Shown here in pieces: positions 4,479 to 26,665 of a DNA stretch of 27,657 bases (the first letter of the stretch is position 1; each line of letters starts with the position of its first letter). A program made the translations under genes and the position numbers. The stretch lies in the IMG/VR virus record IMGVR_UViG_2703718778_000008. The stretch is one strand, 5' to 3'. The stretch comes from a virus. Taxonomy: Duplodnaviria > Heunggongvirae > Uroviricota > Caudoviricetes. The notes under the pieces are model-generated. The model was not told the DNA's origin. It saw only the letters and a program-made list of their open reading frames with translations, and made no database searches.

Positions 4479-7260
4479 TCTGCATATCAGGGTTGCTCTG
4501 GCGGCGGCAGACACCCTGACACAACCTCTCAGGCGCGCCCGCGAAACCGTGGGCGCGCTTTCTGATTCCCTCCGTGAAACTCAGGACTCCATCCGCTCGC
4601 TTGAACGGCAGAGTGAAGCCTTTGCTGCGGCACAGACTAAATTTGACGAAGCCACCCGGAAAATTGCCGCTGTTCAGCAGCAACTGAACCGTCTGCAGCA
4701 GGCGGAGCGTGAGGATACCGTGCTCAGTGAACGGCAGCGTGAAATGATGGCTTCGCTGACCACCCGGCTTGAACGTCTGAACCGGGTGAGGGATGTACAT
4801 CAGCGACGCCTGGAGGATTCACGCCGGGAGCTGGAGAGACACGGTATTGCCGCAGAGGGCAGCAGTCAGACCATACAGGCAGCCATTCGCCGGACGGCAG
4901 AGTATAACGAAGAGCTGGCGCGACAGCGGCAGGCACTCGCACAGGTGACCCGTGCACAGCAACGCTATGAACAGGCGCAGGAGCGACTCGGGCGGATACG
5001 TAATGCCGGTGCGGCGGCACTGGCTGCCGGTGCAGCAGGACTTTACGCTGGCGGGCGTGCTGTTGCGCCGGTGATGGATCTCCAGCGTCATGGTGCCGTC
5101 ATTGCGGCTCAGGCAGGAGAGGGCGCGTCAGATGCCGTGGGGTATACCGGGGTTATAAACCACATGGTTCATACCGGTATCACACCGGATGCACAACTGG
5201 CGGCTGAAGCTGTGGGTGCTGTCCGCTCCACTCTGGGTGGGCTGGGGGCGGTTAGTGAGAATGAACTGACCCGAATCACCCGAAAAATGCTGGATATGCA
5301 GGCCGTGATGGGGGGCGATATCCCGCAGCACATTCAGGCGGCTGCCATCATGATCAAAAACGGTCTTGCACGCAGCAGTGACGAGGCGGTTGATCTGATG
5401 GTGGCGGGCATGCAGCGCATGGGGCCGGTTATGCGCGATGAGCTGCCTGAGATCCTTCACGAGTATTCGACCCATTTTCGTAACATGGGGCTGACAGGGT
5501 CGGAAACCATGACGCTCCTTGCGGATATGGCGCAGCAGGGGAAGTTTGCGCTGGATAAAACCGGCGATGCCATCAAGGAGTTCAGTATTCGCGGCTCCGA
5601 TATGTCAAAGGCGAGTGCTGAAGCGTATGCGCTTATCGGGCTGGATGCAGCCAGGATGTCATCGGCTGTAGCCAGTGGTGGAACGGCTGCACGGGCTGCG
5701 CTGCAGAAAACAGCCTCGGGTCTGTTGCAGATCGTCGATCCGGCTGAGCGGGCCAATGCGGCCATCGCACTTTTTGGTACACCGGTTGAAGATCTGTCTG
5801 TCGATCAAATCCCTGCCTTTCTTGGCGCGCTGGCGCGGGTGTCTGACCGTATGGCTGACGTGTCTGGTGTGGCGGACCGGATGGGGCAAACCCTGCGTGA
5901 CAATCTGAGTGGTGATGTGGCGCGGCTTACCGGGACGTTCAGCGCGCTGAGAAGTGGGATTATCGGGGAGATTACGGACGATCTGCGTGGGCTTGTCCGG
6001 ATGGCCACAGCGTGGGGTGAGCGTCTGCAGGCGTGGGTGAATGCGCATCCGGAACTGGTGCGAATGATTGCGCTGACGACGGGAGCGGTGCTGGCGTTAA
6101 CCACAGCGGTGGGGGCGTTGTCCGTTGCGGCCTGGATGGTTGTCGCACCGTTACTGAAACTGCGTCTGGGGCTTGCCCTGCTTCGCGCGATCCCGGCCGG
6201 ACTCTCCGTTGCCGGTACGCTGTTTGGCGGACTGACGGGTGTGATTTCAGCCGTGGGGGCTGCGCTGGGGGCGCTGACCTGGCCGGTTGTGGTGGCGGTG
6301 GGAGCCCTGGTCGGTGGTGCTCTGCTGATCTGGCGCTACTGGGATCGGGTCAGGGCGTTTGTGAGCGGATTTATTGAAGGGGTACAGTCAGCACTGGCGC
6401 CCTTCATGGCGACAGCCTCCCGTTTTGCGCCGCTGCTGGATCTGGTTTCAGGGGCACTGTCCCGTATTCTGGGATGGTTTAAATCCCTGTTAACGCCAGT
6501 CTCCTCCACGCGTGATTTGCTTGAGCAGTGCACCTCTGCCGGGCAGACGTTCGGGAGCACTCTGGCCGGTGCGTTAGCCACGGTTTTTTCGCCCCTGAAA
6601 GCTCTTATTGACGGTCTGGCGTGGGTGCTGGAAAAACTCGGTGTTCTGCCCGGTGAAGCTGAGCGGGTTAAGCGAAAACTGGATGAGGCCCGTAAAACGC
6701 CGGTGGCATGGGAGTGGGATCCGGAACAGAAAAAAATGGTTCAGAAGGCGTGGCACTGGTCGCCTCCTGGTGGGGCCAGTGTGCCTTCCGGCGCCTCCGG
6801 TACACAGCCTCCGCCGGTGGCGCTCCCTGCGGGGATAGCGCCGGACGGTAACCGTAACGTTCTCCGTCACCTGAAAGGCATTGAGGGGAATACCGGTGGT
6901 CTGCTGGCTGAAAACCGTAAACGTATCGGACCCGGAGATATTGTGTTTAAACATCTTCCACGGGCGCTGGCGGTCCGGGGGCAGTGGCATGAACCTGTCG
7001 TTGCGCCGTCTTCCGGCGGAATGCGCGCGCTGCCACAGGAGGAGATTCAGGTGCAGCAATGGCCGACGGCACGCCCGGCGCCACGAATGCACCAGCAGGA
7101 AACCTTCGCCAGCGCCTTTCAGGGGGAGATACATGTGCATCTTCACGGGGTGAGTTCGTATAATCCCCGGGAACTGGCGCGCATGGTTGGTGACGCTGTC
7201 AGGGCGGAAATGAACAGAATGGCACGTGCCGGAACCGGCAGCTTCCGCGATCGCGACTGA
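4468..7260 (+). CDS. T: Tail tape measure protein
   Basis: About 930 aa; coiled-coil N-terminal region and Gly/Ala-rich hydrophobic middle segment; follows E/E'. Start at ATG 4468 (MMNNLHIRV) with GGAAG upstream; the track's earlier start is a GTG. Confidence 0.85.
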   Translation: MMNNLHIRVALAAADTLTQPLRRARETVGALSDSLRETQDSIRSLERQSEAFAAAQTKFDEATRKIAAVQQQLNRLQQAEREDTVLSERQREMMASLTTRLERLNRVRDVHQRRLEDSRRELERHGIAAEGSSQTIQAAIRRTAEYNEELARQRQALAQVTRAQQRYEQAQERLGRIRNAGAAALAAGAAGLYAGGRAVAPVMDLQRHGAVIAAQAGEGASDAVGYTGVINHMVHTGITPDAQLAAEAVGAVRSTLGGLGAVSENELTRITRKMLDMQAVMGGDIPQHIQAAAIMIKNGLARSSDEAVDLMVAGMQRMGPVMRDELPEILHEYSTHFRNMGLTGSETMTLLADMAQQGKFALDKTGDAIKEFSIRGSDMSKASAEAYALIGLDAARMSSAVASGGTAARAALQKTASGLLQIVDPAERANAAIALFGTPVEDLSVDQIPAFLGALARVSDRMADVSGVADRMGQTLRDNLSGDVARLTGTFSALRSGIIGEITDDLRGLVRMATAWGERLQAWVNAHPELVRMIALTTGAVLALTTAVGALSVAAWMVVAPLLKLRLGLALLRAIPAGLSVAGTLFGGLTGVISAVGAALGALTWPVVVAVGALVGGALLIWRYWDRVRAFVSGFIEGVQSALAPFMATASRFAPLLDLVSGALSRILGWFKSLLTPVSSTRDLLEQCTSAGQTFGSTLAGALATVFSPLKALIDGLAWVLEKLGVLPGEAERVKRKLDEARKTPVAWEWDPEQKKMVQKAWHWSPPGGASVPSGASGTQPPPVALPAGIAPDGNRNVLRHLKGIEGNTGGLLAENRKRIGPGDIVFKHLPRALAVRGQWHEPVVAPSSGGMRALPQEEIQVQQWPTARPAPRMHQQETFASAFQGEIHVHLHGVSSYNPRELARMVGDAVRAEMNRMARAGTGSFRDRD

Positions 7261-7270
7261 GGTGAAAAAG

Positions 7271-7762
7271 ATGATGATGATTTATGGGATGTTTGTGTTT
7301 CAGTTAAGTACCCTGCCGCATCAGCAGGTGGAACAGAGTAAACGCTGGCGACACGTCAGTAATGAACGGGTTAACCGTTCATCCTCCTGGCAGTATATTG
7401 GCTCTGGTGAAGATCACATCACGATGTCCGGTGTGCTCTGTCCGGAAATCACCGGCGGGGAGGTGTCACTGACTGCCCTGAACACCCTGGCCTACACAGG
7501 ATTACCTTGGCCACTGATTGATGGTGTCGGACAGATTTACGGGATGTATGTCATTACGGAAATCAGGACCACCCGTCAGGAGCTGGATCGCTATGGCATG
7601 GCCCGCAAAATTGAGTTCACTGTCAGCTTTCAGCGATGCAATGAAGATCTGCGTGAGCGTCTTCAGTCGGGCTCGGTGGGTGATCTGATGGCAGGATTAA
7701 AAAACAGCGCGTCGTCGGCCCTGTCGTCGGCGTCCTCTGCGCTGTCTGGTCTCATGTTGTGA
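7271..7762 (+). CDS. U: Tail protein U
   Basis: MMMIYGMFVFQLSTLPHQ...GVLCPEITGG...GQIYGMYVITEI... closely parallels P2 gpU; ATG triplet at 7271 after GAGGTGA. Confidence 0.85.
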   Translation: MMMIYGMFVFQLSTLPHQQVEQSKRWRHVSNERVNRSSSWQYIGSGEDHITMSGVLCPEITGGEVSLTALNTLAYTGLPWPLIDGVGQIYGMYVITEIRTTRQELDRYGMARKIEFTVSFQRCNEDLRERLQSGSVGDLMAGLKNSASSALSSASSALSGLML

Positions 7763-7772
7763 AGGTCACTGT

Positions 7773-8360
7773 TCAGGCTTCGGCTTCTTTTCCCCAGCCA
7801 ACCTTATAGTCCAGAATCGCCGCCGTATCGTTCAGGGCGGCGATCTCTTTTTTCATGTTACGCTGGCGAATGTGAATTTCCATCCCTTTGGCAAACAGGG
7901 CTTTTGCGGCTGCATCGCTGAGGGCAATCAGCTCATCAGCAGAAACAGGAACATCGTTGTTCTGTGCATCAGTCCAGAAAAAATCCAGCGGCAGGATCCC
8001 CGCTTTTGCGGCAGCAACGGAAGGCTCAAGGCGGGCCTGCGTTGACTTCCCGTAGTCCCATTTCCTGCCGTTATGTTCAAAGGTGTAACTCGCCGCTTCC
8101 ATCGCATTACGCCAGGCGTTGATTTCGTCGTTTTTCAGGCGTCTGGCGTTTTCCCTGTCAGTGTCGTTTTCCTGGTATTCAGATACAGAGCCGTGATTTC
8201 CTGCTTTCAGTTCGCCCCAGAGTTTTTTGCCGTGTGGCGAGTTGTCATATTCGGTTGCCGTATAGGGCAGCCAGCTCTCCTCCCCTTCAAACTGGATCTC
8301 ACAGTCGATAGTGCCGTCACGGTTATAAGCGGCATTTCTTGCTGATTTGATTGTGTGCAT
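7773..8360 (-). CDS. G: Tail fibre assembly protein
   Basis: Lies immediately downstream of H on the same strand; C-terminal region typical of P2 gpG / Tfa proteins. Confidence 0.75.
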   Translation of the reverse strand: MHTIKSARNAAYNRDGTIDCEIQFEGEESWLPYTATEYDNSPHGKKLWGELKAGNHGSVSEYQENDTDRENARRLKNDEINAWRNAMEAASYTFEHNGRKWDYGKSTQARLEPSVAAAKAGILPLDFFWTDAQNNDVPVSADELIALSDAAAKALFAKGMEIHIRQRNMKKEIAALNDTAAILDYKVGWGKEAEA

Positions 8361-9712: not shown

Positions 9713-10335
9713 TACTCCTTGTCCGGTCTGATGGTTACTGTGATGCCTTCATAGGTGACTCCACCCGGGTGGATGTCACCACTGACTGACAGCGGGCTTG
9801 TCAGTTCTGCTGCCGGATATACCACGATGGTTTCCCCGGTCAGCGTGGCCCCGGTTATGCGGGATATCCCCCGTGCAACGTAGGTCATTTTCATGGCGGC
9901 AAGGTGTCGGCTTACCGGGCGAACGGTGGTAATCATTCGCTCCATCTCCTGCCGGGTTTCCTCTGTCAGTCCGCGCTCCGATATGTCAATATCCAGCCTG
10001 AATGACCCCGGCGGATCGTTGTTCTCCCACCATTCTGTAATACTCAGTATCGCGCCGAAGGGCTCCACAGCCCGACGCATGGCGCTGATGGTGCCTTTGT
10101 GGCGGTGAATATGCCACGAGTCACGGATGATCTGACGACGTGCCTCTTCACTCCATGTTTCATCCCAGCGGTCAACGGAAAGCGCCCAGGCAAGCCATGG
10201 CAGCAGATGGGCTGGGCAGGTGTCGGGGTTCCAGAGGGTGTTGATATGGATCGGCAGCTCTGACAGGCGCTGAGCGCCCTGTTCCGAATGATGCAGGAAG
10301 GAGGGCGATGATGGCGGCAGCAGTCGGTTATTCAT
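9712..10335 (-). CDS. I: Baseplate assembly protein I
   Basis: ...LWNPDTCPAHLLPWLAWALSVDRWDETW...EWWENNDPPGSFRLDI... matches P2 gpI. ATG at 10335 overlaps the J stop (ATGAATAA) with AGGTGG upstream. Confidence 0.85.
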   Translation of the reverse strand: MNNRLLPPSSPSFLHHSEQGAQRLSELPIHINTLWNPDTCPAHLLPWLAWALSVDRWDETWSEEARRQIIRDSWHIHRHKGTISAMRRAVEPFGAILSITEWWENNDPPGSFRLDIDISERGLTEETRQEMERMITTVRPVSRHLAAMKMTYVARGISRITGATLTGETIVVYPAAELTSPLSVSGDIHPGGVTYEGITVTIRPDKE

Positions 10336-20584: not shown

Positions 20585-20739
20585 GGAAATTCTCCATAAC
20601 CTGGTCGTTTTTCCCATGATGGCGGCAGATAACGGTGTGTCTCAAGGTGCTTAAGTTGTATGGCGACGGGGACAACGCGGGCTGGTATCAGGCGGTATTG
20701 CTGAGGCTTAATCTTGCCCTGTTAATGTCAGGGGGTGCA
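20585..20739. promoter_or_regulatory. Divergent late promoter region between O and P (expected PO / PP, Ogr-dependent)
   Basis: Non-coding gap between divergent head and terminase operons; contains a partial dyad TGT-N13-ACA (about 20657-20675). Confidence 0.45.
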
Positions 20740-22478: not shown

Positions 22479-23522
22479 ATGAGTAAACGCAAAAAATACA
22501 CCGGAAAGCGGGGGCAGGATTCGCTACACGATGCACTGAAATCAACGCCTGCACTCAGCGCATTCACCTTTGATGGGCCCTATGAAGTCAGCCGCATGGA
22601 TCTCCTGGATAACATGTCATGTGCAGATAACGGGCGCTACTTTGATACCCCCATGGACTGGAACGCTATCGCCCGTGCATCCCGTCGTGCGTCCTGGCAT
22701 CAGTCGGCTTTGTACTTCAAGCGCAACGCCCTGAACGGGTGCTTTGTTCCTCACCCTCTGCTGTCCCGCCAGGCGTTTTCAGCCTTTGCGCTCGACTGGT
22801 TTGTGTTTGGTAATGCCTATCTTGAAGTGCGGCGTAACAGGCTGGGGGAACCACTCCTGCTTCGCCCGGCACTGGCAAAATATACACGCAGGGGAAGTGA
22901 CCTGGATACCTACTGGTATCTCAACGACGACGGTACGGAGTTCAGTTTCAGGAAAGGGACTGTGTGCCACGTGCTTAATCCTGATATTAATCAGGAGATC
23001 TACGGGATGCCGGAATATATCGGCGGGTTGCTGTCTGTCAGCCTGTCAAACTCAGCGGATACATTCCGCAAGCTCTACTACGATAACGGCTCGCATGCCG
23101 GGTGTATTATCTATGTAGGCACACCTCAGGCGAATGCGGAAAGTGTCGAGGCCATTAAAAAAACGCTTACGGATTCCCGTGGTCGCGGGGCGTTTAAAAA
23201 CCTGTTTCTTCATGCGCCGGGTGGTGGCAAGGATGGTGTGCAAATACTGCCGTTCCAGCAGATAACCGCAAAGGATGAATTCCTGAACATCAAGGGGAGC
23301 GCCCGCGACGATATCCTTGCTGCCCATCGTGTACCACCTCAACTGATGGGGGCAATGCCTGACGGGAATGCGGCGTTTGGTGACGTTGAGAAAGCGGCGA
23401 GGGTGTTTTTCATCAACGAGTTGCAACCTGTCATGGAGGCCATGAAGCATGTCAATGAATGGCTTGGCGTTGAGGTGATGCGCTTTAACCCCTATGCCCT
23501 GCTTCTGGATAACGCCAGCTGA
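22479..23522 (+). CDS. Q: Portal protein
   Basis: 347 aa directly downstream of P; sequence reminiscent of P2 gpQ. Confidence 0.9.
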   Translation: MSKRKKYTGKRGQDSLHDALKSTPALSAFTFDGPYEVSRMDLLDNMSCADNGRYFDTPMDWNAIARASRRASWHQSALYFKRNALNGCFVPHPLLSRQAFSAFALDWFVFGNAYLEVRRNRLGEPLLLRPALAKYTRRGSDLDTYWYLNDDGTEFSFRKGTVCHVLNPDINQEIYGMPEYIGGLLSVSLSNSADTFRKLYYDNGSHAGCIIYVGTPQANAESVEAIKKTLTDSRGRGAFKNLFLHAPGGGKDGVQILPFQQITAKDEFLNIKGSARDDILAAHRVPPQLMGAMPDGNAAFGDVEKAARVFFINELQPVMEAMKHVNEWLGVEVMRFNPYALLLDNAS

Positions 23523-23548
23523 CGCGCTTCGCTTGTCTGCTGCTTCGC

Positions 23549-23573
23549 CGGGGCATAAAAAATTTATGCCCCG
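23549..23573. terminator. Perfect 11-bp stem-loop between convergent Q and the hotspot ORF; candidate bidirectional terminator
   Basis: CGGGGCATAAA (23549-23559) / TTTATGCCCCG (23563-23573). No clear U-run on either side. Confidence 0.45.
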
Positions 23574-23587
23574 ACTCTCCAGCTCTC

Positions 23588-24091
23588 TTAACGGAATGCG
23601 GATGGCGTTCTTCTTTGCAGCTTGCTGATAATATGCATCTTCATACTGTTTACTATCGGCAGCCATTCCCTGTCACCGTCTCCGTTGATGACCACGCGAA
23701 TGGAGGTATCATCTTCCACGCGAACCCGAAGAGATACACCGTCTTTTCCGACGGAATGTAACTCCATTGCCAGGACTATGTTTACCGACTCTCCTTCATC
23801 GTGTGAGTCAACCCATGTTCTTACAGCCATCCGGAATATGTTATCTGTGTCGGTTGCAATCATATTTACCGGAAATGGCCTGAAGTCCCGATCGTTTCTG
23901 CACGGAAACCCCGTATCAACGTAACGATGATGCTCGCCGTCTTTGTCTTCCCATGTCTCTGAAGGCAATTCCAGCCACTGCTCATAAAAAGCAACCAGCT
24001 TTTCAGCCTGATTGCGCAGAATCCCTGTAACCTCCCGCCTCGCGTCCCGGCTCTTTTTGTTTGCCAGGTACAAATCGCGAAAATGGCTCAT
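23588..24091 (-). CDS. Hypothetical protein (167 aa), accessory hotspot gene
   Basis: Strong RBS (AAGGAG 6 nt upstream of ATG 24091). Acidic, no transmembrane segment, no motif I can assign. Confidence 0.6.
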   Translation of the reverse strand: MSHFRDLYLANKKSRDARREVTGILRNQAEKLVAFYEQWLELPSETWEDKDGEHHRYVDTGFPCRNDRDFRPFPVNMIATDTDNIFRMAVRTWVDSHDEGESVNIVLAMELHSVGKDGVSLRVRVEDDTSIRVVINGDGDREWLPIVNSMKMHIISKLQRRTPSAFR

Positions 24092-24711
24092 GTCGCTCTC
24101 CTTTGGTCTGTTTATGCCAGCCTGTATTCTGCGCTCACCTCATATTGTGCGCAAGTTTTCACCCGTGAATGACTGATACTTTAAATTCTATTAACTTTAT
24201 GATTTCAGTGATTTTTGTCTCTCTTTTTTATCCCGTTCGTCACGTCCGTTTCCCTCCCGATCTCCGACCTCGCCAGACGCAATCAGACGCATTCTGACGG
24301 CCTGTTTCCCTGACCATGTTTTGATGTGGTTTTTCAAAACTGGCTTCACTGCGCGCGTATCACGCGCAATACGACCCCAAATAAAGCAACCTGCCTTCCA
24401 CCCCTCAATTCGGGCGCCCTTCCCTCGTCGCCTGCGCGCTGCAATTGCCTCGTTTTTCGTGCACCGTGCAAAGTGGCTTCAGCCCGCGCCGTTACTGGGC
24501 TGAGTGGGGATGAAACACATAAGAAAAATTGTGCAATTTCGTGCACTTTTGTGCAGTTTGAAACGGGTATCTGTTTGACACTGGTACTTACTTTGCGCTA
24601 ACTTTACTCGACCAGAAATTTCAATGAATCGGATGAGGTTGTTTGTCATACGACCTCGGTTAGCTAGGTTGCCTTAATCAAAAGGCATGTTTGATACTGG
24701 AGGAGGTTAAT

Positions 24712-24747
24712 ATGAATAAAGCATTTGACGAATTTGATGGATTCTGA
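24712..24747 (+). CDS. Candidate leader peptide (11 aa, MNKAFDEFDGF)
   Basis: Near-perfect RBS GGAGGAGG (24699-24706) 5 nt before the ATG; followed 20 nt later by an intrinsic terminator. Confidence 0.3.
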   Translation: MNKAFDEFDGF

Positions 24748-24766
24748 ATGTGTTAACCTCGATAAG

Positions 24767-24795
24767 GCGGAGACTGATCTCCGCCTTTTTTATTG
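24767..24795 (+). terminator. Intrinsic terminator / candidate attenuator immediately upstream of the hotspot gene at 24806
   Basis: GGCGGAG (24767-24773) / CTCCGCC (24780-24786), loop ACTGAT, followed by TTTTTTATT. Confidence 0.65.
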
Positions 24796-24805
24796 GTAAA
24801 GAAAT

Positions 24806-25309
24806 ATGGCTATGGACTCAGTAACGATACAAATCATTAGCAATATGATAGTCCTGTTTGGTGTCATTGTTGCTATCTGTACAATTATCTATAACGTTCG
24901 TACGGCAAAAAAAACACAAACCGCTAATTTTTTATTTGAAAGTCGCCAGGATAAGGAATACCTGGAATCATTACATCTCCTCAGGAGAATTCATCGCTCA
25001 GGGAAATCGTTTCGTGCTTATGTTTTTCCTTGTGAAGGCGGGGCTATTACGGAAGAGGAGATGACCGAACGTCGCAAGTTTCAGTACATTCTTAACTTTT
25101 ACGAGAGAGTTGCAGTTAGTATCCGTGAAGGTATTTATGATGAAAGGATGATCAAACGAACGTCCTTTACAACGATTATTACAACTTATGATATTGCAGA
25201 ACCCCTGATTAAGGCTATCAGAGAAGATACTCAATCAAAAACAGCGTACCAGGAGTTTGAATGGCTGGTAAAACGATGGAAAGCTCGTCCTCTTGATAGG
25301 GATGTGTAG
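24806..25309 (+). CDS. Hypothetical membrane-anchored protein (167 aa), AT-rich accessory hotspot gene
   Basis: Markedly lower GC by eye than surrounding phage genes. N-terminal hydrophobic helix IQIISNMIVLFGVIVAICTIIY followed by a charged soluble domain; no recognisable catalytic motif. Confidence 0.6.
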   Translation: MAMDSVTIQIISNMIVLFGVIVAICTIIYNVRTAKKTQTANFLFESRQDKEYLESLHLLRRIHRSGKSFRAYVFPCEGGAITEEEMTERRKFQYILNFYERVAVSIREGIYDERMIKRTSFTTIITTYDIAEPLIKAIREDTQSKTAYQEFEWLVKRWKARPLDRDV

Positions 25310-25324
25310 TTTATTTCTTGCATT

Positions 25325-25351
25325 AGAGCGAGGTTATTGGTGCCTCGCTCT
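25325..25351. terminator. Stem-loop between convergent genes, candidate terminator
   Basis: AGAGCGAGG (25325-25333) / CCTCGCTCT (25343-25351), 9-nt loop. Confidence 0.4.
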
Positions 25352-25356
25352 TTAAA

Positions 25357-25674
25357 TTATCGAGCCGTTCTTGCGCTCATGATGCTTTGCGCCAGCAACT
25401 GCCAGCCCTCTTTCTGTTGCCCGCGCTTGTCCTGATACCTGTTTACCTGCAAGTTTCCGTGCACCAGAATCAGATCGCCTTTTCTGTGTTTTGCCAGTTC
25501 TTCGTGCTGCTTCCCGAATGCAATAAGGTAAAGCCACATTGTGGTTGGCTGTTCTGCGCCATGGCAGGGTAGTGATACCGCCAGTTGTGCCGTTGTGACG
25601 TTGGTTCCTTTGGTTGTTCTCCTTGTGTTCGGGTCTGCTGCCAGTCGTCCCTCTGTTGCAACCTGTGTTGGCAT
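25357..25674 (-). CDS. Short SSB-like OB-fold protein (105 aa)
   Basis: ...MWLYLIAFGKQHEELAKHRKGDLILVHGNLQVNRYQDKRGQQKEGWQ... parallels the E. coli SSB core (...[42 protein letters not shown]...); lacks the acidic C-terminal tail. GGGAGA upstream of ATG. Confidence 0.5.
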   Translation of the reverse strand: MPTQVATEGRLAADPNTRRTTKGTNVTTAQLAVSLPCHGAEQPTTMWLYLIAFGKQHEELAKHRKGDLILVHGNLQVNRYQDKRGQQKEGWQLLAQSIMSARTAR

Positions 25675-25706: not shown

Positions 25707-26045
25707 TTAGATGGCTGGCAGATCTCCGCCAGCGCCGTAGATAAACAGAATTCGCTTCATGATTTCGCTGCGCTTACAGGCTTCGATGACTGATTTTTCC
25801 TGTTGCCATTCTGCCCGTTGCGCCAGCTCCAGTCGTTCCTTTTCCGTTAGCTTCCGGTAATGCGTTATCTTGTCCGTGTACCCGTCCACAACCAGCAGCC
25901 CTTCGCGTACCATCTTCCCGGCGGCCTGATTAATGATGGTCCTTTTCACGCCCAGTTTTTCAACCAGCTCTGGTGCGCTGAAGCGTGCGTGCGTTTCCAG
26001 GTAGCGTAAAATGATTACCTTTCCGGTCATTCTGGGTGTCTTCAT
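25707..26045 (-). CDS. Putative winged-helix DNA-binding protein (about 112 aa)
   Basis: ...ILRYLETHARFSAPELVEKLGVKRTIINQAAGKMVREGLLVV... looks like a wHTH. Start set at the internal ATG that overlaps the upstream stop (ATGA). Confidence 0.4.
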   Translation of the reverse strand: MKTPRMTGKVIILRYLETHARFSAPELVEKLGVKRTIINQAAGKMVREGLLVVDGYTDKITHYRKLTEKERLELAQRAEWQQEKSVIEACKRSEIMKRILFIYGAGGDLPAI

Positions 26046-26212
26046 TTGGCGGCTCCTTCGTTGTTCCGGCGTTCGCGGAGTTCGGTCAGTGCTGCCAGTA
26101 AATTTTCCCACCATGTTTCTTCCACAACCGGATTTCGTCGTGAAAGCAGCTGCTGCGCCGACTCAATCATTTTCGTAAGCTCTTTGTCGCTGATCCTCCT
26201 GATGTCGTTCAT
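26042..26212 (-). CDS. Small hypothetical protein (56 aa)
   Basis: Internal ATG preceded by AAGGAG 7 nt upstream: MNDIRRISDKELTKMIESAQQLL... Confidence 0.4.
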   Translation of the reverse strand: MNDIRRISDKELTKMIESAQQLLSRRNPVVEETWWENLLAALTELRERRNNEGAAK

Positions 26213-26260: not shown

Positions 26261-26665
26261 TTACCTGCGTGATTGCCTGCTGGCGGCCGAATGCACATAG
26301 CGGACAATTGCCGCTTTTCGGTTAACGACGGCCAGCGTTCTTGCCAGTTCTTCGTTGAGTTTTCTGGTCTGTTTTTCGTGGTATGCCTGCATGATTTTTC
26401 CTACGGGAGTCAGTGGTTCAGGCTCTGATATGGCGCGACGAGGGCGCACGGCAACGATGAATGCGCTTCTGTCGGTGTTGATTCTTGCAGTCAGGATGTC
26501 GGTCATAACGGTGTCTGTGCTGCGATCGGGACTGGCGATCGTGATTTCCAGTTCGTCGCCTGGCTGCGGTCGAACACTGACGCCGCTCAGTGTCAGTGCC
26601 GGAATGCGTGCGTTCATGATGGTGCTGAAATCATGGCGCTGGAGTACGCAATGGAATCGTGTCAT
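26261..26665 (-). CDS. Hypothetical protein (134 aa) translationally coupled to gene A
   Basis: ATG overlaps the stop of A (ATGA) with GGAGG upstream; no motif recognised. Occupies the position of P2 orf91. Confidence 0.5.
   Translation of the reverse strand: MTRFHCVLQRHDFSTIMNARIPALTLSGVSVRPQPGDELEITIASPDRSTDTVMTDILTARINTDRSAFIVAVRPRRAISEPEPLTPVGKIMQAYHEKQTRKLNEELARTLAVVNRKAAIVRYVHSAASRQSRR

What the first reader, a model, noticed from the sequence alone, without database searches (positions are those of the whole stretch)
23588..24091. Second orphan hotspot gene, convergent with portal gene Q
A 167 aa acidic soluble protein with a very strong RBS and no recognisable motif, lying between Q and the region where cos is expected. 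In P2 the Q stop is only about 120 bp from cos, so either this phage has cargo between Q and cos or the ORF spans the packaging site. Together with the 24806 gene it is divergently transcribed from a repeat-rich 0.7 kb intergenic region, so the two could form a two-component accessory system.
Basis: partly seen in the sequence, partly recalled or inferred. Interest (0 to 1): 0.6.

Follow-up and report, generated by a model that had tools for sequence, protein, structure and literature searches.

The report
Uncharacterised accessory gene between portal and cos
The 167-residue gene is real and under selection, but it is not an orphan: it is a rare variant of an unstudied, phage-only family of small non-enzymatic proteins that sits in the known variable region beside the DNA-packaging site of P2-like prophages, and its function is still unknown.

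Summary
The ORF (23588-24091, minus strand, 167 aa, strong RBS, convergent with portal gene Q) is exactly as described. It is a true coding gene (dN/dS 0.16 against a 77%-identical homologue).

It is not an orphan: it matches phrog_5091 at E 1e-40, and relatives occur across Enterobacterales. It does not span cos: the probable cohesive-end sequence is at 24414-24432, 322 nt upstream of its start codon. It is not an obligate partner of the DUF4760 gene, because the two assort independently and evolve at very different rates.

The ORF lies on a 654-bp low-GC cassette (23586-24239), inserted next to the Q terminator hairpin and cleanly absent from a sister prophage. Divergent relatives (77, 46, 32 and 24% identity) occupy the same Q-cos interval in other P88-like phages; the 24% variant is in 397 of 5426 complete E. 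coli genomes. More distant relatives always sit between the antiterminator and the lysis genes of lambdoid prophages.

The predicted fold is an alpha+beta two-layer sandwich, closest to protein-binding modules, with no catalytic motif and no hit to known defence models. My best guess, at low-to-moderate confidence, is a stand-alone binder protein made in the lysogen that acts in phage-phage or phage-host conflict. This is a new member of a known kind, of modest interest.

The parts
22479..23522 (+). Portal gene Q. Context only; convergent with the ORF.
   Evidence: PF04860 at E 2e-18 and phrog_68 at E 3e-143. RefSeq names it 'phage portal protein'.
23549..23573 (.). Perfect hairpin CGGGGCATAAA-AAA-TTTATGCCCCG between the two convergent stop codons. 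It probably serves as a tQ-like terminator for both genes.
   Evidence: Inverted repeat I3. The surrounding 68 bp are 98.5% identical in four isolated P88-like phages. P2 has an annotated tQ terminator at the equivalent place. There is no T-run after the stem, so the terminator scan did not list it.
23586..24239 (.). Mobile cassette of 654 bp carrying the ORF, its RBS and its putative promoter. It is an insertion/deletion relative to sister prophages.
   Evidence: Window 23400-23585 and 24231-24559 are contiguous in NZ_CP116067; the junction was read. GC is 46.7% against 54.5% for the window. The cassette is present in 11 of 5426 complete E. coli genomes, all at 99% identity or more.
23588..24091 (-). 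ORF167: a 167-aa soluble protein of an uncharacterised phage-restricted family (phrog_5091).
24096..24103 (-). Shine-Dalgarno sequence AAGGAGAG.
   Evidence: Read from the sequence.
24126..24154 (-). Putative sigma-70 promoter: -35 TTGCGC (24154-24149), 17-nt spacer, -10 CAGAAT (24131-24126). Inferred, not shown.
   Evidence: Read from the sequence. Both hexamers are kept in the 85%-identical cassette of L008 (TTGCGC-17-GAAAAT) although the spacer differs. It falls below the threshold of the consensus scan. There is no Ogr-type TGT-N12-ACA box upstream.
24240..24559 (.). Conserved cos block, shared by prophages that carry different cargo on either side.
   Evidence: The core 24420-24556 is conserved at 70-75% in more distant P88-like prophages. 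Seven phages are aligned.
24414..24432 (-). Probable cohesive-end (cos) sequence, GGCGACGAGGGAAGGGCGC on the minus strand.
   Evidence: It matches P2 cos (GGCGAGGCGGGGAAAGCAC) at 13 of 19 positions in the expected orientation. The homologous position in L036 reads GGCGAGGCGGGGGAGCAAGC. It is the best-conserved G-rich block in alignment A4. Its spacing to the GTGCA repeats is about 95 nt, as in P2. A 13/19 match on its own is not significant: 13 such sites occur in the window.
24458..24555 (.). GTGCA repeats of the cos region: 24458-24473, then three copies phased 10 nt apart at 24530, 24540 and 24550. They may be terminase-binding elements or part of the promoter of the gene on the far side of cos.
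   Evidence: Read from the sequence. TTGCACAATTTTT is invariant in all seven phages aligned. P2 has ATGCA repeats at the same distance from cos.
24560..25356 (+). Independent cassette on the other side of cos. It holds a TTGACA promoter-like hexamer (24575-24580), an 11-codon leader ORF (24712-24747), a terminator hairpin (24764-24787) and the DUF4760 gene (24806-25309). It is not part of the ORF167 unit.
   Evidence: PF15956 at E 3e-35. GC is 39.5%. The terminator was found. The leader peptide and hairpin are conserved in Shae_phiSM. Homology to other prophages breaks at 24559/24560.

Best explanation
ORF167 is a self-contained, single-gene accessory cassette ('moron') in the Q-proximal half of the cos-adjacent variable region of a P88-like (Xuanwuvirus-type, Peduoviridae) E. 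coli prophage.

Shown:
- It encodes a real, selected, soluble protein of about 19.5 kDa.
- The protein belongs to a phage-restricted, fast-diverging family.
- The predicted fold is an alpha+beta two-layer sandwich: a long N-terminal helix, an antiparallel sheet and a C-terminal helix. It has no catalytic motif and no constant partner gene.

Inferred:
- It is transcribed from its own weak sigma-70 promoter, away from cos and towards the Q terminator hairpin. It would therefore be made in the lysogen rather than as an Ogr-dependent late gene.
- The protein acts stoichiometrically, by binding and blocking a target protein, most likely of a competing phage. That would be a superinfection-exclusion or defence function of the kind P2 Tin performs, and it would benefit the lysogen and the resident prophage.
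For: Gene reality and selection.

Cassette nature: a clean insertion/deletion against NZ_CP116067, low GC, and a terminator hairpin at the 3' end.

Location: the gene lies in the gpA-gpQ, cos-adjacent hotspot, where more than a third of cloned systems were anti-phage (PMC9122126). In the later study, 6 of 8 randomly chosen unknown-function loci in the sister P4 hotspot were protective, and 15-32% of unknown P2 proteins carried a defence signal (PMC13586616).

Same slot, divergent alleles: 77, 46, 32 and 24% identity. This is the pattern expected of a conflict gene. The gene diverges much faster than the adjacent portal, which is 77-84% identical over its C-terminal part where ORF167 relatives are 32-46% identical.

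Lambdoid relatives: in 12 of the 13 lambdoid contexts examined the gene sits in the classical moron slot between the antiterminator and the holin/endolysin; in the other it lies between the lysis genes and the terminase. Copies sit beside HicAB in Pantoea and a Peptidase_M4_C-domain protein in Salmonella, and the three copies scanned have a terminator directly after the gene.

No Ogr box lies upstream, whereas the O-P late intergenic region has one. The putative promoter hexamers are conserved in the 85%-identical L008 cassette.

Against: - There is no experimental or homology link to any known defence or exclusion protein. PADLOC gave no family-wide hit: none for ORF167, and only two isolated weak single-member matches among 24 members. 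Pfam, PDB sequence, Foldseek PDB and BFVD gave nothing significant.
- Every copy found is inside a prophage or phage. None was found in a non-phage defence island or on a plasmid. That distribution suits a phage-benefit gene, such as counter-defence, at least as well as a defence gene.
- In lambdoid prophages the gene is co-oriented with the late operon, downstream of a tR'-like terminator. This suggests late, Q-dependent expression rather than expression in the lysogen.
- The promoter is only 3/6 + 4/6 to consensus and is not supported by any expression data.
Confidence: 0.35

Rival explanations
1. Counter-defence or host-takeover protein. The binder inhibits a host immune sensor or effector, or sponges an immune signal, for the benefit of the phage during infection or induction.
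For: The family is restricted to phages and prophages. It stays faithful to its slot within each phage lineage and diverges fast, down to 24% identity. It is a small, non-enzymatic, single protein. In lambdoid prophages it is the first gene downstream of the antiterminator, in late-operon orientation. In the P2-like phage it lies only about 320 nt from the left cohesive end, with its promoter on the same end fragment.
Against: It matches no known anti-defence fold in PDB or BFVD. Known anti-defence genes are reported as very rare in P2-like prophages (PMC13586616), although that count covers known families only. It is not acidic or DNA-mimic-like (pI 6.07). No early-promoter context has been shown.
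Confidence: 0.25
2. Host-directed lysogenic-conversion factor unrelated to phages. One possibility is an orphan immunity-type protein that neutralises a bacteriocin or a contact-dependent toxin. Another is a modulator of a host pathway.
Against: No cognate toxin or linked effector lies nearby. The structural similarity is weak. There is no signal peptide or secretion signal.
Confidence: 0.12
3. Accessory factor of the phage's own late functions (packaging/cos, DNA-end handling or lysis timing), which would explain its position next to cos and Q in P2-like phages and next to the lysis genes in lambdoid phages.
For: Its position near cos and portal, or near the lysis and terminase genes, is constant in every context examined.
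Against: The gene is dispensable, since sister prophages and isolated P88-like phages lack it. The lambdoid carriers use unrelated terminase types (Terminase_2/3, Terminase_4 with TerL, GpA). In the P2-like phage the gene lies outside the late operons and lacks an Ogr box. Both positions are generic moron slots.
Confidence: 0.1
4. One reading: one half of a two-gene system with the divergently transcribed DUF4760 membrane protein.
For: Both genes flank cos divergently here, and again (with other alleles) in 226 genomes of the EC958 type.
Against: The two genes assort independently: only 2 of 11 genomes carry both for this allele, and about 171 of 397 carry the homologue without DUF4760 for the EC958 allele. 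DUF4760-only and neither-gene prophages also exist. Alternative neighbours are TumE/HVO_A0114 or no gene at all. The lambdoid loci with Pfam annotation list no DUF4760 gene. The DUF4760 alleles are 78% identical where the partner alleles are 24% identical. The cos site, which is cut in every packaged genome, lies between the two genes.
Confidence: 0.04

Closest known systems
P2 lysogenic-conversion exclusion genes tin and old, and the gpA-gpQ cos-adjacent hotspot of P2-like phages (Rousset et al. 2022, PMC9122126)
   Same: ORF167 lies in the same genomic interval between the replication gene A and portal gene Q, next to cos. It is non-essential and variably present among related prophages. It looks like a stand-alone cassette with its own promoter. 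Tin is likewise a single protein, reported to act by binding a protein of the invading phage (my own knowledge, not tested here).
   Different: There is no sequence or fold relation to Tin or Old. ORF167 lies on the Q side of cos, where P2 has no gene: only 140 nt separate cosL from tQ. tin and old lie on the other side, where the DUF4760 gene lies in this window. No anti-phage activity has been shown for ORF167.
phrog_5091, with WP_000236495 (EC958, ST131 prophage) and URE76763 (phage vB_EcoM-705R2)
   Same: They belong to the same protein family: E 1e-40 to the PHROG and hhalign probability 98.9% to the 705R2 protein. They share the motif Y-x3-L-x-L-P-x3-W-x-D-x2-G-x4-Y-V-x2-G. They occupy the same interval and are convergent with the portal gene.
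   Different: Identity is only 24%. The EC958-type gene is inserted on the Q side of the hairpin, 14 nt from the portal stop. ORF167 is on the cos side of the hairpin. The EC958 type is common (397 of 5426 genomes) and the ORF167 type is rare (11 of 5426). All members are annotated 'hypothetical'.
Lambdoid morons in the Q-S slot (position of stx; Hendrix-type morons)
   Same: Distant family members sit between the antiterminator and the holin or endolysin. A terminator follows directly after the gene in the three copies scanned. Their neighbours are other morons such as HicAB and an IS element.
   Different: The protein is not a toxin, is not exported and has no enzymatic domain. The expression mode, late or in the lysogen, is unknown.
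FP domain of Fbxo7/PI31, CapZ subunits and type III secretion chaperone-like two-layer alpha+beta sandwiches
   Different: Identity is 5-11%. Foldseek finds nothing below E 0.08. This is fold-level resemblance only, and no homology is claimed.

Membership tests
phrog_5091 / ORF167 family (uncharacterised) | Full-length profile match | tested here: met
   phrog_5091 at E 1e-40, residues 1-165 matching profile positions 2-162 of 164.
phrog_5091 / ORF167 family (uncharacterised) | Conserved residues of the family (Y36, L40, L42, W47, G52, Y57, G61, F70, T92, D95, K151, P163) | tested here: met
   These positions are invariant in the 24-sequence alignment A2, which includes the window protein.
Cargo of the P2-like gpA-gpQ cos-adjacent hotspot (Rousset 2022) | Located between replication gene A and portal gene Q, adjacent to cos | tested here: met
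   Q is at 22479-23522, the probable cos at 24414-24432, and the A-like replication endonuclease begins at 26662 and runs past the end of the window.
Cargo of the P2-like gpA-gpQ cos-adjacent hotspot (Rousset 2022) | Presence/absence or replacement among otherwise closely related prophages | tested here: met
   The cassette is cleanly absent from NZ_CP116067. It is present in 11 of about 28 genomes that share the near-identical cos block.
Cargo of the P2-like gpA-gpQ cos-adjacent hotspot (Rousset 2022) | Anti-phage activity | not testable with these tools
   This needs plaque assays. The EC958-type relative WP_000236495 appears 167 times as 'hypothetical' in the hotspot-arrangement table (file 6). 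The held files were not checked for whether it was tested.
Known anti-phage defence systems (PADLOC-DB v2.0.0) | Match to any defence-protein model | tested here: not met
   No hit for ORF167 at E up to 1. Among 24 family members there were only two isolated weak hits, one member each: HEase at E 0.017 and Csx1 at E 0.068.
Moron (autonomous promoter-gene-terminator unit of atypical composition) | Atypical base composition and discrete boundaries | tested here: met
   GC is 46.7% against 54.5% for the window. The junctions were read directly.
Moron (autonomous promoter-gene-terminator unit of atypical composition) | Own terminator | tested here: met
   A hairpin lies at 23549-23573, directly after the stop codon. 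The three lambdoid copies scanned also have a terminator directly after the gene. The window hairpin lacks a T-run, so its function as a terminator is inferred.
Moron (autonomous promoter-gene-terminator unit of atypical composition) | Own promoter, active in the lysogen | tested here: inconclusive
   There is only a weak sigma-70-like site, TTGCGC-17-CAGAAT, conserved in L008 but below the scan threshold. No expression data are available.
Two-component system with DUF4760 | Consistent co-occurrence of the two genes | tested here: not met
   Only 2 of 11 genomes carry both for this allele. For the EC958 allele all four combinations occur. None of the lambdoid loci with Pfam annotation lists a DUF4760 gene.
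Two-component system with DUF4760 | Co-evolution of the two partners | tested here: not met
   The DUF4760 alleles are 78% identical, while the ORF167-family alleles of the same two prophages are 24% identical.
P2-family core protein | Present in P2 and across P2-like phages | tested here: not met
   P2 has no gene between cosL and Q. P88, P884B11 and Shae_phiSM lack it. tblastn of ORF167 against 50,697 phage records gave no match.
FP-domain / type III chaperone-like fold | Significant structural and sequence similarity | tested here: inconclusive

The most novel reading that the evidence does not exclude
The ORF167 family is a previously unrecognised, phage-exclusive class of small binder proteins kept at two fixed 'conflict' positions: the Q-cos interval of P88-like Peduoviridae, and the first position after the antiterminator in lambdoid phages. 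Its highly divergent alleles would encode different target specificities. It would be either a new single-protein exclusion system or a new anti-defence inhibitor with a new fold family. One allele is carried by about 7% of complete E. coli genomes, including ST131.
Probability: 0.45. Interest if true: 0.55.

Novelty: new member of a known kind. Interest (0 to 1): 0.33.

Why it matters
The cos-adjacent hotspot of P2-like phages is an established source of new anti-phage systems, but most of its unannotated single genes have never been tested.

This work shows that the interval between Q and cos, which is empty in P2, is a sub-slot of its own. It is repeatedly occupied by one fast-evolving, phage-restricted protein family. 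That family also occupies the Q-S moron slot of lambdoid prophages, and one allele is present in roughly 7% of complete E. coli genomes, including ST131.

That gives a concrete and cheap experimental target: a cassette of about 650 bp with several natural alleles. It could yield a new single-protein exclusion or counter-defence mechanism. If the phenotype screens are negative, the gene is simply one more hypothetical moron.

Tried and rejected
- **Sequence searches.** Pfam, NCBIfam, PADLOC and PDB sequence searches with the single protein and with family alignments gave nothing meaningful.
- **Repeat-protein hits.** The long cadherin/Ig and beta-propeller hits in the representative search are compositional matches to beta-rich repeats, so I discarded them.
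- **Structure searches.** Foldseek against PDB and BFVD gave no hit below E 0.08. The AFDB library was unavailable.
- **Isolated phages and plasmids.** tblastn of ORF167 against phage and plasmid collections gave no match. The divergent phage copy was found only through the lambdoid homologue.
- **Rfam.** Only two sub-threshold hits came up in 23400-25400, and I rejected both.
- **Late-gene hypothesis.** There is no TGT-N12-ACA box upstream of the ORF.
- **Repeat-rich regulatory region.** Most of the repeats are chance two-copy matches.
- **First cos candidate.** My first candidate (24497-24518) came from the ends of the linear P884B11 record. I demoted it after alignment showed that the block at 24414-24432 is better conserved and reads almost exactly as P2 cos in L036. 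The Gemsvirus record NC_049343 was useless for mapping because it contains host genes.
- **Locus searches.** It worked only with the lambdoid subfamily and returned 7 loci.
- **Literature.** Searches for phrog_5091 and for the protein accessions found nothing. The P88 papers do not map cos. The order in which P2 DNA ends are packaged or injected could not be established from the library.

Full report
**1. The observation**

An ATG-initiated ORF of 167 codons lies at 23588-24091 on the minus strand. The Shine-Dalgarno sequence AAGGAGAG precedes it at 24096-24103. RefSeq annotates the same coordinates as a hypothetical protein in the identical prophage of E. coli JNEC-KY208.

The ORF is convergent with the portal gene at 22479-23522 (PF04860, phrog_68). 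The 65-nt gap between the two stop codons holds a perfect hairpin at 23549-23573.

The protein is soluble (GRAVY -0.63) but only marginally acidic, with a calculated pI of 6.07.

It is a true coding sequence. Against the 77%-identical homologue, dN/dS is 0.157, and 53 of 93 nucleotide differences fall at third codon positions.

**2. The gene is not an orphan**

Pfam, NCBIfam and PADLOC give nothing. The protein does match phrog_5091 (unknown function) end to end at E 1e-40.

An exhaustive phmmer search of 1.84 billion representatives found a small family of proteins of 160-180 residues. It also returned spurious matches to cadherin and beta-propeller repeat proteins.

A profile search added about 20 clusters from Salmonella, Citrobacter, Serratia, Yersinia, Pantoea, Kosakonia, Rahnella and Symbiopectobacterium. 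All are annotated as hypothetical.

The family shares the motif Y-x3-L-x-L-P-x3-W-x-D-x2-G-x4-Y-V-x2-G, plus invariant F70, T92, D95, K151 and P163.

**3. Where it sits, and where cos is**

The phage is a P88-like (Xuanwuvirus-type) member of the Peduoviridae. Comparison with sister prophages splits the region into modules that vary independently:

| Module | Window coordinates | Notes |
|---|---|---|
| Q and its hairpin | up to 23585 | Conserved in sister prophages |
| ORF167 cassette | 23586-24239 (654 bp) | 46.7% GC against 54.5% for the window; cleanly missing from NZ_CP116067 |
| Conserved cos block | 24240-24559 | Shared by prophages with different cargo |
| Second cassette | 24560-25356 | 39.5% GC; carries the DUF4760 gene |

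Inside the conserved block, the minus strand at 24414-24432 reads GGCGACGAGGGAAGGGCGC. That is a 13/19 match to the P2 cohesive end GGCGAGGCGGGGAAAGCAC, in the orientation expected from the position of Q.

The match alone is not significant, because 13 sites in the window score as well. Three other lines support it:
- It is the best-conserved G-rich block in a seven-phage alignment.
- The homologous position in a distant relative reads GGCGAGGCGGGGGAGCAAGC.
- It lies about 95 nt from phased GTGCA repeats, which is the spacing of the ATGCA repeats in P2.

A second candidate (24497-24518) coincides with the ends of the linear P884B11 record but is less conserved.

With either candidate, cos lies more than 320 nt upstream of the ORF's start codon. 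The ORF is therefore cargo between Q and cos and does not span the packaging site. In P2 this interval is 140 nt of non-coding DNA between cosL and the tQ terminator.

**4. The slot is occupied again and again by the same family**

Homologues in the Q-cos interval, all convergent with a P2-type portal gene and downstream of a P2-type cos block:

| Identity to ORF167 | Where found |
|---|---|
| 77% | L008 (P88-like prophage) |
| 46% | L035 |
| 32% | L036 |
| 24% | Isolated phage vB_EcoM-705R2; ST131 strain EC958 |

The 24% member scores hhalign probability 98.9%. It is inserted on the other side of the hairpin, only 14 nt from the portal stop.

The 24% allele is in 397 of 5426 complete E. coli genomes. 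The ORF167 allele is in 11.

Rousset et al. list the EC958-type protein WP_000236495 167 times as 'hypothetical' in their catalogue of gpA-gpQ hotspot arrangements.

The gene diverges far faster than the neighbouring portal. Over its C-terminal part the portal is 77-84% identical where the ORF167 relatives are 32-46% identical.

**5. Distant relatives in lambdoid prophages**

I examined 13 further contexts across Salmonella, Citrobacter, Serratia, Yersinia, Pantoea, Symbiopectobacterium, Izhakiella and Rouxiella. In 12 of them the gene lies between the late antiterminator and the holin or endolysin, co-oriented with the late operon. In the other it lies between the lysis cassette and the terminase.

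In the three lambdoid copies scanned, a terminator follows directly after the gene, and where one was found upstream it sits where tR' would be expected. The neighbours vary (HicAB, an IS4 element, a Peptidase_M4_C-domain protein), so there is no constant partner.

No copy was found on plasmids.

**6. The two-gene idea fails**

- The 24806 gene is DUF4760 (E 3e-35), with an N-terminal hydrophobic segment.
- Only 2 of the 11 genomes with the ORF167 cassette carry it.
- The 77% homologue is paired with a TumE/HVO_A0114 pair instead.
- For the EC958 allele, 226 genomes have both genes and about 171 have only the homologue. Prophages with DUF4760 alone, or with neither gene, also occur.
- The DUF4760 alleles of the two prophage types are 78% identical, while the ORF167-family alleles are 24% identical.
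- The two genes are separated by cos, which is cut in every packaged genome.

The DUF4760 cassette has its own apparent control region. It comprises a TTGACA hexamer, an 11-codon leader ORF with a strong RBS, and a terminator hairpin. The leader peptide and hairpin are conserved in Shae_phiSM with synonymous changes.

**7. Structure**

An AlphaFold2 model built on a 24-sequence alignment is confident (pLDDT 83.7, pTM 0.78). It shows a long N-terminal helix (residues 2-39), an antiparallel sheet, and a C-terminal helix (143-161).

Foldseek against PDB and BFVD finds nothing below E 0.08.

The resemblance is at fold level only. The closest neighbours are non-enzymatic protein-interaction platforms, and the family's invariant residues do not form a recognisable catalytic set.

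**8. Expression (inferred)**

No Ogr-type TGT-N12-ACA late-promoter box precedes the gene, whereas the O-P intergenic region has one at 20657-20674.

A weak sigma-70-like site lies on the minus strand: TTGCGC (24154-24149), a 17-nt spacer, then CAGAAT (24131-24126). Both hexamers are kept in the 85%-identical L008 cassette although the spacer has diverged. It falls below the threshold of the consensus scan.

I therefore infer autonomous expression that is compatible with the lysogenic state, as for other P2 conversion genes. This is not shown. The late-operon orientation of the lambdoid copies points the other way.

**9. Interpretation**

The evidence supports a dispensable, single-gene, phage-restricted and rapidly diversifying moron that encodes a small binder protein. 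It sits in two classical accessory slots.

Published priors for unknown genes of the P2/P4 cos-adjacent hotspots are substantial:
- More than a third of cloned systems were protective.
- 6 of 8 unknown P4 loci were protective.
- 15-32% of unknown P2 proteins carried a predicted defence signal.

My confidence in each reading:

| Reading | Confidence |
|---|---|
| Lysogen-expressed exclusion or defence protein acting by stoichiometric binding | 0.35 |
| Counter-defence or host-takeover inhibitor | 0.25 |
| Host-directed conversion or orphan-immunity factor | 0.12 |
| Accessory to the phage's own late functions | 0.10 |
| Two-gene system with DUF4760 | 0.04 |

The counter-defence reading is favoured by the phage-only distribution and the late-operon position in lambdoid prophages.

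**10. Verdict**

The 'orphan', 'spans cos' and 'two-component' readings are not supported. The 'cargo between Q and cos' reading is supported.

This is a new, rare allele of an uncharacterised family within a known kind of locus. Interest is modest (0.33). The family as a whole would be a reasonable candidate for experimental screening.

Noticed in passing
window 24575-24805: The DUF4760 gene is preceded by a TTGACA hexamer (24575-24580), an 11-codon ORF with a strong RBS (24712-24747, MNKAFDEFDGF) and a terminator hairpin with a T-run (24764-24787). In Shae_phiSM the peptide is MKKVFDEFDGF, with synonymous changes, and the hairpin is conserved. This looks like leader-peptide or attenuation control of a membrane protein gene.
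   Followed up: partly
window 24458-24473 and 24530-24555: GTGCA motifs lie in the cos block, with three copies phased exactly 10 nt apart. TTGCACAATTTTT is invariant in seven P88-like phages. P2 has ATGCA repeats at the same distance (about 95 nt) from its cohesive end, close to where the old-tin mRNA starts. They could be terminase-binding sites or promoter elements.
   Followed up: partly
L005/L006 (NC_049391, Xuanwuvirus P884B11 record ends); window 24497-24518: The ends of the linear P884B11 record fall about 85 nt from the P2-like cohesive-end sequence, next to a second G-rich motif (GGGCTGGAAGGGCA). Either the record termini are not the true cohesive ends, or P88-like phages cut at a different place from the one inferred by homology to P2.
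   Followed up: partly
L037 2992-3516 (vB_EcoM-705R2); L038 3501-4025 (EC958): A 24%-identical family member is inserted between the portal stop (14 nt away) and the conserved hairpin. This is the opposite side of the hairpin from ORF167, and there is no terminator between the convergent genes. It is present in 397 of 5426 complete E. coli genomes, including ST131.
   Followed up: yes
L008 4150-4898 and 5938-6251: In the prophage with the 77% homologue, the far side of cos carries a TumE / HVO_A0114 gene pair (toxin-antitoxin-like). About 240 bp of extra sequence lie between the portal stop and the hairpin, which shows a third point of variation in this interval.
   Followed up: partly
L003 6693-7825 (NZ_CP075652): A stretch of 1.1 kb between ORF167 and the SSB gene has no annotated gene. 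Its start resembles the region that encodes a 178-aa hypothetical protein in NZ_CP116067 (L004 6576-7112). It may be a pseudogene or a missed gene.
   Followed up: no
window 25357-25674 and 25707-26114: The phage SSB is only 105 aa, an OB fold with no evident acidic C-terminal tail. The next gene is a winged-helix protein matching phrog_142, 'Ren-like exclusion protein' (E 5e-28), and weakly MarR_2.
   Followed up: no
window 20657-20674: The only TGT-N12-ACA (Ogr/delta activator-type) box near this locus lies in the O-P divergent late-promoter region. Two others are at 9774 and 12671. The total number in the window is not above chance.
   Followed up: partly
protein cluster of P0001: Many draft assemblies hold truncated copies of this protein (71-148 aa) at contig ends. 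This suggests that assemblies often break inside or beside this cassette, probably because several P2-like prophages share its flanks.
   Followed up: no
L011-L014 (Salmonella) 4585-8139; L025 (Pantoea) 6592-7232: In Salmonella lambdoid prophages the homologue is flanked by an IS4 transposase and a 436-aa Peptidase_M4_C-domain protein. In Pantoea it sits next to HicAB. The Q-S slot therefore collects several morons together.
   Followed up: no
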